Positions 53,004 to 56,953 of a stretch of 64,000 nucleotides of DNA are shown here, piece after piece. Where the stretch lies: positions 1 through 64,000 of the forward strand of contig JAHLWS010000046.1 of the NCBI GenBank assembly GCA_019057795.1, given 5' to 3'. Positions within the stretch are counted from its first letter, which is position 1. Every line of letters starts with the position of its first letter. Below the pieces are notes generated by a model. That model was not told the DNA's origin. It saw nothing but the letters and a program-made list of their open reading frames with translations, and searched no databases. The DNA comes from Promethearchaeota archaeon (GTDB taxonomy: Archaea > Asgardarchaeota > Lokiarchaeia > Sigyniarchaeales > SOKP01). The translations under genes were made by a program, and so were the position numbers.

Positions 53004-55246
53004 TTAAAGGATTTTCTTTAATTCCAAGATCAAATTTTTTGGATTAATACGATCAAATTGAAATATTTCTGCTTTTCCGTATTCTTTAAAGTTCTTTTTA
53101 ATGTTGTCCGCGGCGAACGTATTTACGCCCAGAGATCTTGTCGCATATGACTTCTTCGGCTCTAAAACGACCATATGTGCTCCTTTCTTGGATAAATTCT
53201 TTGTTAATGCTTTTAATTCGTTAATAATTAATGTGTAGTCTGTTTGAACTTGAGCAATTAAATCAGGAAATTTATAGGAAATGTTAGCTCCGCAGTCAGA
53301 ACATACAAAAATGACGGGAATCATATTTCTATTCTTTAACTTTTCAGCGTTCATTAGCTTTAAGCATTTTGTCAACGCTGCTGCCATAGGCGTGTAAGAT
53401 TTTCCTTTAATCTTTTTCATTTTATTTACAGCAGTTTTAAAGTAAACCGTAGGTTTCTGAAGAACGACGGCTTCTTTTCCTCTAAAGATGATGAGGCTTA
53501 TTTTATCCTTTTTCCGGTATCCTTCACGTTGTAACGATAGAATCACATCTGTCATTTGTTTAATCACGTAATGCATCGAAGCAGAACTGTCGAGTACAAA
53601 AAATAAAACTAATGGTGCACGATATTCGTACACTTTATCCATTAAATCGTATTTATTAAATTTTATTGGAAAGTCTATTTCCGTTTGATTGTATATAGTA
53701 TTTTTCAAATAAGTCCTTATTGTTGCGTCAAGAGCTATGCTTTTAGGTCGATTAATAGGCTGCCGATATGAAATGTACCTTCCCTTTTGAGAAGAAGCTA
53801 TTTTTATCCGTCGCCCAATTCCTCTCCCGCCGTAATCAGATATTTTTCGATCTTTTCGAATATTATCTAGTATGGAAGTCATTTTCTTTTCCATGTTGTA
53901 AATTAATGGCATGGAACCTAATCCGTTTTCAAAAAATTTAAAATCTCGCTCGTCAAACTCAGGAATATCTTTTACCTTCCATCCTCCAGCAGGTGTTGGG
54001 TTTCTTTTTTTATTATCAGGGTATTTAGGGGGTGGAAGTTTCTGTTCTTTTGTCTCTGGAATGTTAACTTTTTTTGGATCAACAGATTGTCTTTTGAATT
54101 CCTTTTGAGGAGTGTCGTCGTGCTTCAGCGGTCCTTCAGTTTCTTTATTTGGTTGATAAGTATTTGGATCCTCGTAAGCTTTTTGTATCTTTCCGTAAAC
54201 TTCAAATATTTTTGCTTTAACTTCTTCAGGAGTCATCTCGTAATGGAGCGATTTGATTCTATGTTCAAACACTAAATTCATAGCCGCATTTAAATCTTCT
54301 TCAATAACTTCCTTCCGACCGTTGAGTGCAGCATGAGCTCTCGCGCATCTTATAAACGTAATATCTGCTCTTTGTGAAAAAATATCCAATTCGTTAACTA
54401 ATCTAGATACGAATTCGTAAACAGTTGAGGGAATTTGGACTTCCTTTATAATTTGACGCGCCATCACGATTTTCTTTCTTAAATCTTCTTGTTCTTGCTC
54501 GTATTTCTTAATAAAATCCTTTGGGTTATCGTCAAAATCAATAACGCTTTTTGTAATCTCTGCTCGTAATTTTATATCGCGAGGAGCCTTGATTTTTACT
54601 TCTAAACCCAATCTATCCGCAATTTGAGGACGTAATTCTCCCTTTCCGAATTCTAATTCGAAACGAATTGAGAACCTTCGGGGTTCATACTTCCTACTAA
54701 TACAAATCGGGAGGGATGTGATACCGAAATACCTTCGCGCTCTATGATATTTATACCCGAAGCTGCAGCATCCAATAGAACATCAACAATATGGTCTTGA
54801 AGTAGATTTATCTCATCAACATAGAGGAGACCTCTATTTGCTTTAGCAAGTAGACCGGGATGAAGGCTACGAATTCCCTCAGTGAGTACTCTATCGATTG
54901 ATAAGGAACCAGTTACCATATCTTCAGTTGCGCCCAAAGGCATATCTGCTATACGCATACTACGCTTTTCTATTTCAAGATTGCCCGATTCCTTTCTTTT
55001 CCTGCAATCATTGCATAAATCGTTCAAAACAGCTTTAGGATTACATGAAAAAACACAGTCCTTAACAACTTCGATTTCAGGCATTACTTCAATTAGGGAC
55101 CTTACCGCAGTTGACTTTCCTGTTCCTTGTTGACCTGTTAATAACACACCACCAATCATAGGATCAATAACATTAAGAATTAACCCTAGCTTCATCTGAG
55201 GTTGTCCTAAAATGGCGGTAAATGGGTAATTTTTCTTTTTTTGCAT
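53004..55246 (-). CDS. ChlI/ChlD-like AAA+ chelatase subunit with C-terminal VWA domain; exons 55246-54676 and 54643-53004 (736 aa spliced)
   Basis: YPFTAILGQ, Walker A GQQGTGKST, LPLG-like MPLGATED, Walker B LYVDEINLL, then SMNPE|EGELRPQIADRLGL across the insert; VWA with DSSASM, TPMA, SD. Confidence 0.88.
54644..54675 (-). other. Candidate 32-nt archaeal BHB/BHL-type intron in a protein-coding gene
   Basis: Insert GTTCTCAATTCGTTTCGAATTAGAATTCGGAA is a hairpin with an in-frame TAG; junctions form a CCGA/UCGG 4-bp helix with AG^G and AA^A bulges; removal restores NPEEGEL and the frame. Confidence 0.8.
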
Positions 55247-55321: not shown

Positions 55322-56953
55322 TCACCGAGATGAATAATATTTCTTAAAATAATTCATTAATGATAGGGCTTTAAAACCTTTTTTAGTTAGTTCATACTCA
55401 GTAATTCTATTCTCTCTACTTATTCTTATAAATTGTTTAAGAAAATCATTTCTATCAAAAAATTGGGCTACTATCTTAGGGGATTTAACACCAAGAGCAT
55501 TAGCTAAGATCTTGTTAGTTATAATTCCACCAGTTTTGGATAATTTATCAATAGCTATTAAATATTTTTCAAAATTACCACTTAATCTCTTAGACAATTT
55601 AAATGGATCTTTAATCAATACGCTACTATAAACAAGTTTAAAGTTTTGCTTCACATTGGTATGATCTTTAGAGACTTTCTCCATAACATTCTCATCAATA
55701 TAGACATTTTCCAATAAATCATAATAACTACTCCTATGAAAAACAGTATGACAATTATTACATAAATATCCACCACGTTCTTGATCAAGTTTACTTACAA
55801 TCTCAGAACAAGTAATTTCTTCAGATTTAAAAAGATCAGAAGCTATTAAGGTCTTTTTTGTTTCATCCATGTGATTAAAATGAAATGATACTAAATGTTC
55901 AATTGTGTTAAATTCCCCACAAATTTGGCAAGATTCACCATATAGAGTTTCAATAATATATTTTCTTTTTAATAAGCTTATAATACTAAGCTTTACATAT
56001 GCTTTTTGTTTTGAATTTAGATTTTTAGTAATTGGATAAGCATTAATTGAAATTTTTATAAGAGTATGAATTAATTCAGGAGAGAGATATTGTATTTTAT
56101 TAGGAAAAATATTTGGTAAATATTTCCAAGATATCAGATGTCTGAAAAAATTATAATATTTAGAAGAAATTATATCATGATGATTAGCACATATGAGAGT
56201 GATTTTTTTTGATTCCATTGATTTAATTAAGTTTTCTAAAAATAACGGATTGTCTCTATTTTCATTAAACAATTCATACAAAACAGTAGTAGAATATTTT
56301 TGCTCTTTTTCATCAGTAGTATGGTGGAATTCCAATGCTTTTAATCTTGAAATATTTGTATTTATTTTAAATCCTTCTTTCTTGCACTCTGGGCATTCTC
56401 CTTTTCCACTCTTGCAAAATTTACCATTATAAAGGTTTTTAATGAGATAAAGCTTTATTCTACTACCAATTAGAGATGAATAAAGTTTTTCGTTATGTAT
56501 CTCTGTTTTTGATCGTTTTGGAAGTATATCTGGAAATTTTTTATAAAGAAAATCAAATATCTCTATAATTGAATTATAAAATGTTTTAAAATTTTGGAAC
56601 ATGGTAATTTCTTTATTAAATAAATATTTTGCAAGAGGTTTTATGGTTAGATTGGTTCTTATTTTTTTATGCATTACAGAAACGGCATAGAGATATTTTA
56701 TGGTTTCAGCTAATTCTGAAAAATATTTTACAGATTTATCGAAATGGTTTTTATAGAGCTCCTGTATTAATAAAATATCTTCTTTAGATAATAGATGTCG
56801 TAATTTAGCACAGTTTTTCTGTAAATCTAAAGCATAATTTGAAATTTTTGAACCAGACTTATCTAATATTATTTTTTCAAAGATATCAAAAGAAATTAAA
56901 TTCCTGATTCTTGGAAAATTATAATACGGAGGAAAGTTAAACTGTTTATTCAT
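55322..56953 (-). CDS. Protein with two HNH-like zinc-binding domains and a C-terminal winged helix (endonuclease-like)
   Basis: CPEC...LEFHH...LICANHHDII and CQICG...FHFNH...LCNNCHTVFH; C-terminal ITNKILANALGV...YELTKKG. Confidence 0.6.
   Translation of the reverse strand: MNKQFNFPPYYNFPRIRNLISFDIFEKIILDKSGSKISNYALDLQKNCAKLRHLLSKEDILLIQELYKNHFDKSVKYFSELAETIKYLYAVSVMHKKIRTNLTIKPLAKYLFNKEITMFQNFKTFYNSIIEIFDFLYKKFPDILPKRSKTEIHNEKLYSSLIGSRIKLYLIKNLYNGKFCKSGKGECPECKKEGFKINTNISRLKALEFHHTTDEKEQKYSTTVLYELFNENRDNPLFLENLIKSMESKKITLICANHHDIISSKYYNFFRHLISWKYLPNIFPNKIQYLSPELIHTLIKISINAYPITKNLNSKQKAYVKLSIISLLKRKYIIETLYGESCQICGEFNTIEHLVSFHFNHMDETKKTLIASDLFKSEEITCSEIVSKLDQERGGYLCNNCHTVFHRSSYYDLLENVYIDENVMEKVSKDHTNVKQNFKLVYSSVLIKDPFKLSKRLSGNFEKYLIAIDKLSKTGGIITNKILANALGVKSPKIVAQFFDRNDFLKQFIRISRENRITEYELTKKGFKALSLMNYFKKYYSSR

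What the first reader, a model, noticed from the sequence alone, without database searches (positions are those of the whole stretch)
54625..54695. Candidate tRNA-endonuclease-type (bulge-helix-bulge) 32-nt intron inside an mRNA: the chelatase AAA+/VWA gene
Seen in sequence: on the minus strand the gene reads ...AGT ATG AAC CCC GAA G|GTTCTCAATTCGTTTCGAATTAGAATTCGGAA|AG GGA GAA TTA CGT CCT CAA... Removing exactly 32 nt (54675-54644) gives SMNPEEGELRPQIADRLGL, the conserved sensor-1/Arg-finger motif of ChlI/ChlD ATPases, and fuses the 197-aa and 535-aa ORFs into one 736-aa protein. The insert is a hairpin (UUCU-C-AAUUCG-UUU-CGAAUU-AGAA) carrying an in-frame UAG. The junctions fold into a 4-bp central helix CCGA/UCGG with a 3-nt AAA bulge on the 3' side and AGG (opposite one U, i.e. 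a relaxed BHB/BHL) on the 5' side, closed by exon-exon pairs CC/GG and more distantly GUA/UAC and AGGA/UCCU. Established: the archaeal splicing endonuclease EndA cuts after the 2nd nt of each bulge and RtcB ligates; here those cuts (AG^G, AA^A) fall exactly on the frame-restoring boundaries. The best-known archaeal mRNA intron is in crenarchaeal cbf5. Inference: this is a spliced mRNA intron in a metabolic gene of a probable Asgard archaeon. It could act as a frame-switching control, analogous to unconventional HAC1/XBP1 splicing, because unspliced RNA yields only a truncated ATPase.
Basis: partly seen in the sequence, partly recalled or inferred. Interest (0 to 1): 0.95.

Follow-up and report, generated by a model that had tools for sequence, protein, structure and literature searches.

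The report
tRNA-type mini-intron in Asgard ATPase gene
A 32-base insert shaped like a tRNA intron splits a conserved ATPase gene of a Loki-type Asgard archaeon, and comparison with relatives shows that it almost certainly has to be cut out of the messenger RNA, a kind of splicing that the papers I could search confirm for only one archaeal protein gene (cbf5).

Summary
On the minus strand, 32 nt (54675-54644) split a ChlI/ChlD-like AAA+/VWA gene into a 197-aa ORF and a frame-shifted 545-codon continuation. A relative with 96% protein identity lacks exactly these 32 nt, so the borders are unique. They are the borders that the bulge-helix-bulge (BHB) cutting rule predicts.

Eleven distinct variants of 30, 31 or 32 nt sit at this site in four genera. 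Cutting each at the BHB sites restores the frame and the EEG(E/D)LRPQ motif. Both gene halves are under strong purifying selection in intron carriers (dN/dS 0.03-0.11).

The genome encodes two EndA paralogues, one with catalytic residues and the broad-specificity loop lysine, and one RtcB. Its single rpl11 gene carries similar inserts.

Best reading: an EndA/RtcB-spliced mRNA intron (confidence about 0.85). The HAC1/XBP1-like control idea has no support: about nine in ten related species lack the intron, and so do some near-identical alleles.

The scan has noted the same kind of intron in many other Asgard genomes and in other genes of this genome. Searchable papers confirm mRNA BHB splicing only for crenarchaeal cbf5. 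I class this as a new member of a known kind.

The parts
54676..55246 (-). Exon 1: codons 1-190 plus the first base of codon 191. It covers the AAA+ N-half (Walker A/B, sensor-1 region) and ends ...ATG AAC CCC GAA G.
   Evidence: ORF and translation. Pfam Mg_chelatase/AAA_5. The border is set by the intron-less allele L004.
54644..54675 (-). The 32-nt intron, in phase 1. It carries the in-frame UAG at 54655-54653.
   Evidence: Absent, to the base, from L004. Identical in L003, which comes from another sample. Variants occur in 10 further lineages.
53004..54643 (-). Exon 2: the last two bases of codon 191 plus 545 codons and the stop. It covers the Arg-finger motif GELRPQIADRLGL, AAA_lid_2 and VWA.
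   Evidence: Translation. Pfam. dN/dS 0.03-0.11 among intron carriers.
54678..54681 (-). Central BHB helix H, 5' strand (exon): CCGA.
   Evidence: Pairs with 54649-54646. Invariant in 7 variants. Present in the minimum-energy folds.
54646..54649 (-). Central BHB helix H, 3' strand (intron): UCGG.
54675..54677 (-). 5' bulge A-G-G. The cut falls after the second base (between 54676 and 54675). The third base is G, A or U in relatives and faces one U (54650).
   Evidence: Border. Variation.
54643..54645 (-). 3' bulge A-A-A. The cut falls after the second base (between 54644 and 54643).
   Evidence: Border. AAA or AUA in all 32-nt variants.
54651..54674 (-). Intron helix h' (UUCU/AGAA) with the inner hairpin AAUUCG-UUU-CGAAUU.
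   Evidence: Folds. One compensatory pair, U-A in 3 rows against C-G in 4 rows.
54682..54683 (-). Outer exon helix h, 5' strand: CC. It pairs with GG at 54642-54641.
   Evidence: Invariant in 7 variants. The Pro codon is CCC in 12/12 intron-bearing rows against 12/33 intron-less rows.
54641..54642 (-). Outer exon helix h, 3' strand: GG.

Best explanation
The 32 nt at 54675-54644 (minus strand) are a bulge-helix-bulge (BHB) intron in the pre-mRNA of a ChlI/ChlD-like AAA+/VWA gene.

Proposed mechanism: the transcript folds so that the last exon-1 bases (CCGA) pair with the intron's 3' end (UCGG). This 4-bp helix is flanked by a relaxed 5' bulge (AG+N) and a 3' AAA bulge, stacked on an intron hairpin and closed by CC/GG. 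The cell's two-subunit splicing endonuclease (EndA alpha/beta) cuts after the second base of each bulge, and RtcB joins the exons. The product is one 736-codon reading frame with the motif MNPEEGELRPQ. Unspliced RNA can only give a 197-aa fragment.

Shown here: the insert, its exact borders, its structure, its conservation, selection on both exons, and the presence of the enzymes. Inferred: that cutting and joining take place on the RNA.

The intron looks like a tolerated passenger rather than a switch. It is old (four genera), slides by one base, changes length (30, 31, 32 nt) and has been lost precisely in close relatives.
For: 1. Exact borders. L004 (96% protein identity, 38-kb contig) lacks exactly these 32 nt, and no other placement gives its sequence. 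The borders are those the rule predicts (cut after the second bulge base; rule as stated for cbf5 in PMC2738675).

2. The insert is real DNA. The identical insert is in an independent assembly (L003). At least 15 distinct 197-aa alleles come from NCBI, ENA, JGI and Logan sources.

3. Eleven distinct variants sit at the same codon: seven of 32 nt (genus g1 and metagenome contigs), one of 31 nt (G101, g12) and three of 30 nt (G041 in g11, G145 in g13, and L008). After excision every one restores EEG(E/D)LRPQ, and the complete loci give 738-756 open codons. A scoring blind to reading frame ranks the frame-restoring border first of about 700 possible placements in 8 of 11 variants. It ties for first in the window and comes second in L005. 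Two 30-nt variants (L063, L008) form a strict BHB.

4. Selection. dN/dS is 0.03-0.11 in exon 1 and in exon 2 between intron carriers, with synonymous sites mostly saturated. The ten codons GELRPQIADR after the junction are kept through synonymous changes, yet have no start codon upstream in their frame.

5. Structure. The central helix and CC/GG are invariant and h' has a compensatory U-A/C-G change. Exon codons that form the motif are fixed in carriers: CCC in 12/12 against 12/33, Fisher p = 1e-4, not corrected for phylogeny.

6. Enzymes. There are two EndA paralogues of about 200 aa. One aligns without large gaps (largest gap 2 residues) to the catalytic subunit of Aeropyrum pernix EndA (3p1z_B), including the Tyr/His/Lys catalytic residues and the loop lysine, Lys44. 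One RtcB is present. Asgard EndA is reported as the (alpha-beta)2 type with the L1 loop, which gives broad specificity (PMC5829648).

7. The same genome depends heavily on this machinery. Its only rpl11 gene carries two inserts, and the second (C73:108851-108824) is the best BHB in its region and restores GINIKDVV. ARAGORN recognises only 18 tRNA genes in this genome, 10 of them with introns.
Against: The 5' bulge of the 32-nt class is not canonical. The energy model pairs the first intron base and leaves a 2-nt bulge, and the outer helix h has only 2 bp and is not predicted in a short context.

Covariation rests on seven related sequences and one clearly compensatory pair.

The L005 and L064 variants have only 3 of 4 central pairs, and in G101 the true border is not among my top three scores.

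No 736-aa product identical to this strain's exons is in the protein collection.
Confidence: 0.85

Rival explanations
1. Pseudogene: the 32 nt are an inactivating insertion and the gene is dead in this lineage.
For: The unspliced frame stops after 197 aa. About nine in ten related species have no insert. A degenerate fragment of a second copy exists elsewhere in the genome (C34).
Against: Eleven diverged carriers in four genera keep both halves open. dN/dS is 0.03-0.11 in both halves with saturated dS. There are no further frameshifts or stops. Insert length varies, yet excision always restores the frame.
Confidence: 0.03
2. Translational recoding: ribosomes bypass or frameshift across the insert (as in T4 gene 60 hopping or programmed frameshifting), without any RNA cutting.
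For: There is a hairpin with a stop codon just downstream of the break, which loosely resembles a bypass signal. cbf5 introns were once confused with frameshifting (PMC2738675).
Against: The join lies inside a codon (phase 1). No matching take-off and landing codons lie 32 nt apart, read directly. Variants of 30 nt (in-frame, with stops), 31 nt and 32 nt would each need a different recoding event, whereas one cutting rule explains all of them. The conserved parts are the BHB core and its exon partners, not a slippery site.
Confidence: 0.04
3. Split gene: the two ORFs are translated separately and assemble into a working ATPase.
For: Gene callers list 197-aa and 535-aa products. A TTG lies 11 codons after the junction.
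Against: The break lies inside the AAA+ module between the sensor-1 region and the Arg-finger motif. The ten codons before that TTG are conserved at the protein level through synonymous changes, and no start lies upstream in that frame. The 30-nt variants are in-frame inserts with stop codons. The TTG is simply a Leu codon of DRLGL and is CTA in other carriers.
Confidence: 0.03
4. Regulated switch: splicing is conditional, as for HAC1/XBP1, and the unspliced mRNA's 197-aa fragment or the splicing ratio controls the ATPase.
For: Unspliced RNA would give a truncated Walker-A/B fragment. The intron has persisted in several lineages.
Against: The intron is missing from most species of the order and from alleles 96-97% identical to this one, which keep an intact gene. 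Its interior sequence and length drift. The splice sites lie in BHB bulges, not in IRE1-type 7-nt loops, read directly. Similar inserts sit in unrelated genes such as rpl11, which points to passengers rather than gene-specific switches.
Confidence: 0.05

Closest known systems
BHB intron in the cbf5 (pseudouridine synthase) pre-mRNA of Crenarchaeota (Watanabe 2002; Yoshinari 2006; Yokobori 2009, PMC2738675)
   Same: A short intron inside a protein-coding frame. An unconventional (relaxed) BHB. Cut sites between the second and third bulge bases that match the exon borders. An organism with a hetero-oligomeric EndA. Lineage-specific precise loss.
   Different: A different phylum (Asgard/Lokiarchaeia-type) and an unrelated gene (AAA+/VWA chelatase-like). 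Presence or absence varies even among alleles 96-97% identical. Length variants of 30, 31 and 32 nt, with the helix register slid by one base. Splicing of cbf5 was confirmed by cDNA, whereas here no RNA was checked.
Non-canonical BHB introns of archaeal pre-tRNAs (hBHBh', HBh', BHL classes), cut by (alpha-beta)2 or epsilon2 EndA and joined by RtcB
   Same: The same motif geometry and cutting rule, the same size range, and the same enzymes encoded in this genome. Asgard tRNA genes are heavily interrupted (bioRxiv 10.64898/2026.10.13.758758), and here ARAGORN finds only 18 tRNAs.
   Different: The host RNA is an mRNA. [quoted passage not shown]
BHB-dependent processing in the 5' UTR of the Haloferax volcanii endA mRNA (PMC7714728)
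   Same: EndA acting on an mRNA.
   Different: That site is in an untranslated region of a euryarchaeon and does not interrupt a reading frame.
HAC1/XBP1 unconventional mRNA splicing (IRE1 plus tRNA ligase/RtcB)
   Same: A small intron that restores the frame, removed without a spliceosome. In animals the joining is done by RtcB.
   Different: The nuclease there is IRE1, which recognises twin 7-nt loops, and splicing is stress-regulated. Here the sites lie in BHB bulges, EndA is the expected nuclease, and nothing indicates regulation.

Membership tests
Archaeal BHB intron (EndA-cut, RtcB-joined) | A 4-bp central helix between two 3-nt bulges on opposite strands | tested here: met
   CCGA/UCGG forms four Watson-Crick pairs and is invariant in 7 variants. 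The 3' bulge is AAA. The 5' bulge is AG+N opposite one U (relaxed) in the 32-nt class. It is a strict 3-nt bulge in the 30-nt variants L063 and L008.
Archaeal BHB intron (EndA-cut, RtcB-joined) | Cuts after the second base of each bulge coincide with the exon-intron borders | tested here: met
   The border is fixed independently by the intron-less allele L004. The rule also restores the frame in the 30-, 31- and 32-nt variants.
Archaeal BHB intron (EndA-cut, RtcB-joined) | At least one flanking helix (h of exon, h' of intron) | tested here: met
   h' has 4-5 bp with a compensatory U-A/C-G change. h (CC/GG) is invariant but has only 2 bp.
Archaeal BHB intron (EndA-cut, RtcB-joined) | Removal restores a conserved, selected product | tested here: met
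   736 codons, as in the orthologues. dN/dS 0.03-0.11 in both exons among carriers.
Archaeal BHB intron (EndA-cut, RtcB-joined) | The host encodes a splicing endonuclease able to cut relaxed motifs, and an RtcB ligase | tested here: met
   Two EndA paralogues. The alpha-like one keeps Tyr/His/Lys and the loop Lys44 of A. pernix EndA (the role of Lys44 is from my own knowledge of Hirata 2011). RtcB is present. The Asgard EndA type comes from PMC5829648.
Archaeal BHB intron (EndA-cut, RtcB-joined) | Spliced RNA and excised (circular) intron observed; cleavage by EndA in vitro | not testable with these tools
No product identical to this strain's spliced exons is in the protein collection.
cbf5 intron lineage of Crenarchaeota | Located in cbf5 at the catalytic Asp codon, inherited within Desulfurococcales/Sulfolobales | tested here: not met
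   The host gene is a ChlI/ChlD-like AAA+/VWA gene of an Asgard archaeon. It shares the mechanism, not the lineage.
IRE1-type (HAC1/XBP1) unconventional splicing | Splice sites in twin 7-nt hairpin loops, cut by IRE1 | tested here: not met
   The splice sites lie in 2-3-nt bulges beside a 4-bp helix. I did not search the genome for IRE1.
Programmed translational bypass (T4 gene 60 type) | Matched take-off and landing codons flanking the skipped stretch | tested here: not met
   The junction is in phase 1, inside a codon. There is no matched codon pair 32 nt apart. Length variants of 30, 31 and 32 nt exist.
ChlI/ChlD-like AAA+ plus VWA proteins (host gene) | An N-terminal Mg_chelatase-type AAA+ module, an AAA lid and a C-terminal VWA domain | tested here: met
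   PF01078, PF07728, PF17863 and PF13519 match across the two parts. Real chelatase activity was not tested. The neighbouring genes are JAB/RPN11-like and ATP-grasp genes.

The most novel reading that the evidence does not exclude
This intron is one visible member of a population of EndA-dependent introns in ordinary protein-coding mRNAs of Asgard archaea. On this reading they behave like eukaryotic introns: ancient at a site, sliding by a base, changing length, co-segregating with one exon through recombination, and lost precisely. That would mean the archaeal relatives of eukaryotes routinely express interrupted protein genes through the tRNA-splicing machinery.
Probability: 0.5. Interest if true: 0.85.

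Novelty: new member of a known kind. Interest (0 to 1): 0.68.

Why it matters
If the RNA is spliced as predicted, gene finders mis-call this conserved gene as two fragments, and they do so in many public Asgard assemblies.

It would also extend protein-coding BHB splicing from a single crenarchaeal gene to an ordinary gene of the archaeal group closest to eukaryotes.

The locus is a good test case. Intron-bearing and intron-less alleles differ by only a few percent. Natural length variants of 30, 31 and 32 nt exist. The exon half of the RNA motif leaves a readable footprint on synonymous codons.

Tried and rejected

Search for a spliced product of this strain. All 15 members of the 736-aa cluster and the 736-aa members of the neighbouring cluster differ from the window's exons by at least 3 (N-terminal) and at least 17 (C-terminal) residues. 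None is an RNA-derived copy of this allele.

Genome-wide census. I required a strict BHB plus the joining of two open frames of at least 80 codons. This gave 211 hits, against 189-223 when the 3' partners were slid by 2-4 bases, so there was no excess. Adjacent same-strand genes dominate the hits, and the thresholds exclude short genes such as rpl11. A follow-up asking whether paralogues align across the junction gave 13 hits against 13-16 in the controls. Those I inspected were neighbouring genes or operon paralogues. The census says nothing either way.

Repeat or mobile-element reading. A covariance model of the intron with its flanks finds only itself in the 4.95-Mb genome. A short-word BLAST of the intron finds nothing beyond chance.

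The only H+-PPase match (C56) is one uninterrupted 738-codon frame, so I did not reproduce it.

Full report
**What is there.** On the minus strand of the window (contig C46 of a 4.95-Mb, 87-contig genome) a ChlI/ChlD-like gene is broken. ORF 55246..54653 gives 197 aa and stops at a UAG. From 54641 to 53004 a different frame is open for 545 codons, beginning GELRPQIADRLGL. Pfam puts Mg_chelatase/AAA_5 on the first part and AAA_lid_2 plus VWA_2 on the second. Removing 54675-54644 (32 nt) joins them into 736 codons.

**The borders are fixed by an independent allele.** The nearest proteins in public data are 734-736-aa proteins of Lokiarchaeota/Promethearchaeota. Among them are about 197-aa and about 535-aa pairs called on neighbouring ORFs.
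- Contig L004 (protein 96% identical, 38 kb) lacks exactly the 32 nt. It reads CCCGAAG|AGGGAGAA, and shifting the gap by one base either way gives a different sequence, so the borders are unique.
- Contig L003, from another sample, has the identical insert.
- At least 15 different 197-aa alleles are on record from four sources.

The insert is therefore real DNA and not an assembly error.

**Distribution.** In the same order, 144 of 154 species genomes have a match to the query, and about nine in ten of these are uninterrupted at this site. The site is interrupted in the following:
- seven species of the window's genus (32 nt);
- G101 of genus g12 (31 nt);
- G041 of g11 and G145 of g13 (30 nt, in frame, with stop codons);
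- the metagenome contigs L005 (32 nt) and L008 (30 nt).

After excision, every complete carrier locus gives a frame of 738-756 open codons with no further stop or shift.

**Structure and cutting rule.** The last exon-1 bases, CCGA, pair with the intron's UCGG. Upstream CC pairs with downstream GG. Between them lie AG+N on the 5' side and AAA on the 3' side. The intron forms h' (UUCU/AGAA) and an inner hairpin.
- Cutting after the second base of each bulge, the rule given for cbf5 in PMC2738675, gives exactly the borders fixed by L004.
- In seven 32-nt variants the central helix and CC/GG never vary. One h' pair switches U-A to C-G (3 rows against 4). The paired fraction is 84.5%, against 26-52% when the partners are slid.
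- The first intron base is G, A or U opposite a constant U, so the 5' bulge is relaxed. Energy folding pairs it when it can and leaves a 2-nt bulge.
- In the 30-nt variants the central helix has moved one base (CGAA/UUCG or CGAA/UUUG). The rule still gives EEGE, and two of them (L063, L008) are strict BHBs.
- A scoring blind to reading frame, run over about 700 border placements per sequence, puts the frame-restoring one first in 8 of 11 variants. It ties for first in the window and comes second in L005. It misses in the U-rich G101.

**Footprint on the exons.** In carriers the codons that build the motif are fixed. Pro189 is CCC in 12 of 12 rows against 12 of 33 intron-less rows, and Glu191 is GAG in 9 of 12 against 5 of 33. 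These counts are not corrected for relatedness.

**Selection.** Between carriers, dN/dS is 0.03-0.11 in exon 1 and in exon 2, and synonymous sites are mostly saturated. The ten codons after the junction are kept through synonymous changes, although no start codon lies upstream in their frame.
- This rules out a long-dead gene and argues against two separately translated halves.
- Recoding by the ribosome would need three different events for the 30-, 31- and 32-nt forms. One cutting rule explains all three.

**History.** On the exon-1 tree the carriers group together with a few intron-less sequences nested among them, which needs four changes. L004 sits inside the clade of the window and G122, which points to a recent precise loss. 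The exon-2 tree disagrees with the exon-1 tree. For example, G104 and G112 have an exon 2 close to the window's (dS about 0.3) but a distant exon 1. So recombination has occurred near the intron, and the intron travels with exon 1.

**Machinery.** The genome has two EndA paralogues of about 200 aa.
- One matches the catalytic subunit of the Aeropyrum pernix heterotetramer (3p1z_B, E = 4e-34) without large gaps (largest gap 2 residues). The match includes the catalytic Tyr/His/Lys and the loop lysine, Lys44.
- The other paralogue is more diverged.
- One RtcB is present.
- Published work assigns Asgard archaea the (alpha-beta)2 enzyme with the L1 loop, which confers broad specificity (PMC5829648).

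ARAGORN recognises only 18 tRNA genes here, 10 of them with introns. This fits the heavily interrupted tRNA genes reported for Asgard archaea (bioRxiv 10.64898/2026.10.13.758758).

**Another case in the same genome.** It carries two inserts. The second (108851-108824, 28 nt) is the best BHB in its region, with a 4-bp helix GCAU/AUGC, AAA bulges and an 8-bp h'. Its removal restores GPTGINIKDVVDAVNEKT. An essential single-copy gene cannot be a pseudogene, so this organism must remove such inserts.

**What is not shown.** No RNA was examined. My own genome-wide census was uninformative.

The HAC1/XBP1-like control idea has no support. The intron is dispensable in most relatives and in near-identical alleles, its interior drifts, and similar inserts sit in unrelated genes.

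The host protein's role is unknown. It is chelatase-like, and in relatives it lies between a JAB/RPN11-like gene and an ATP-grasp gene, so 'metabolic' is a guess.

**Comparison with what is known.** In the papers I could search, a BHB intron inside a coding frame is confirmed only for cbf5 of Crenarchaeota. Introns in other genes are only 'predicted' (PMC2738675), and recent EndA papers still cite only cbf5. The present case works like cbf5 but is not part of that lineage.

This scan has noted the same kind of insert many times in other Asgard genomes and in other genes of this genome. I treated those notes as leads only.

**Verdict.** The best reading is an EndA/RtcB-spliced mRNA intron (confidence about 0.85), and it is a new member of a known kind.

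Noticed in passing
L008:1228-1260 region (metagenome contig) and L058 (G101:C242), upstream of the main site: A second insert site in the same gene, not present in the window. About 30 nt with an in-frame stop lie between ...LGVTE and DMV... (codon ~106 of the window's protein). Two lineages that also carry the main intron share it.
   Followed up: partly
window 53004-55246 compared with L047/L049 (G104, G112): Exon 1 and exon 2 have discordant histories. G104 and G112 have an exon 2 close to the window's (dS about 0.3) but a distant exon 1 (dS saturated). This points to recombination at or near the intron, with the intron following exon 1.
   Followed up: partly
G000:C73:108824-108912 (minus strand): The only rpl11 (uL11) gene of this genome is broken by two short inserts around a ~28-nt micro-exon. 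The second (108851-108824, 28 nt) has a 4-bp central helix GCAU/AUGC, AAA bulges and an 8-bp stem. I could not fix the exact borders of the first.
   Followed up: partly
G000:C34:73794-74021 (locus L002): A 76-residue fragment 59% identical to the N-terminus of this ATPase, with an internal TAA. It lies just downstream of a JAB/RPN11-like gene, the gene that precedes the ATPase in relatives. It looks like a decayed second copy or a rearrangement scar.
   Followed up: partly
window 55322-56953 (minus strand): In the window the gene upstream of the ATPase is a 543-aa ORF with no Pfam match. Relatives (L003, L004) have a JAB/RPN11-like gene there instead.
   Followed up: no
whole genome G000: ARAGORN finds only 18 tRNA genes (10 with introns, one called with a 90-nt intron) in a genome rated 100% complete. 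Most tRNA genes are presumably interrupted in ways the program cannot read.
   Followed up: no
G101:C242 start / G101:C88 end; G047:C155 end: In two related genomes, contigs end at or within this intron, and the two G101 contigs overlap across it. This may reflect a mix of intron-plus and intron-minus strains in the samples.
   Followed up: no
G000:C56:31605-33584: The only H+-pyrophosphatase match is one uninterrupted 738-codon frame. An earlier first-stage note had described two inserts in hppA of this genome.
   Followed up: partly
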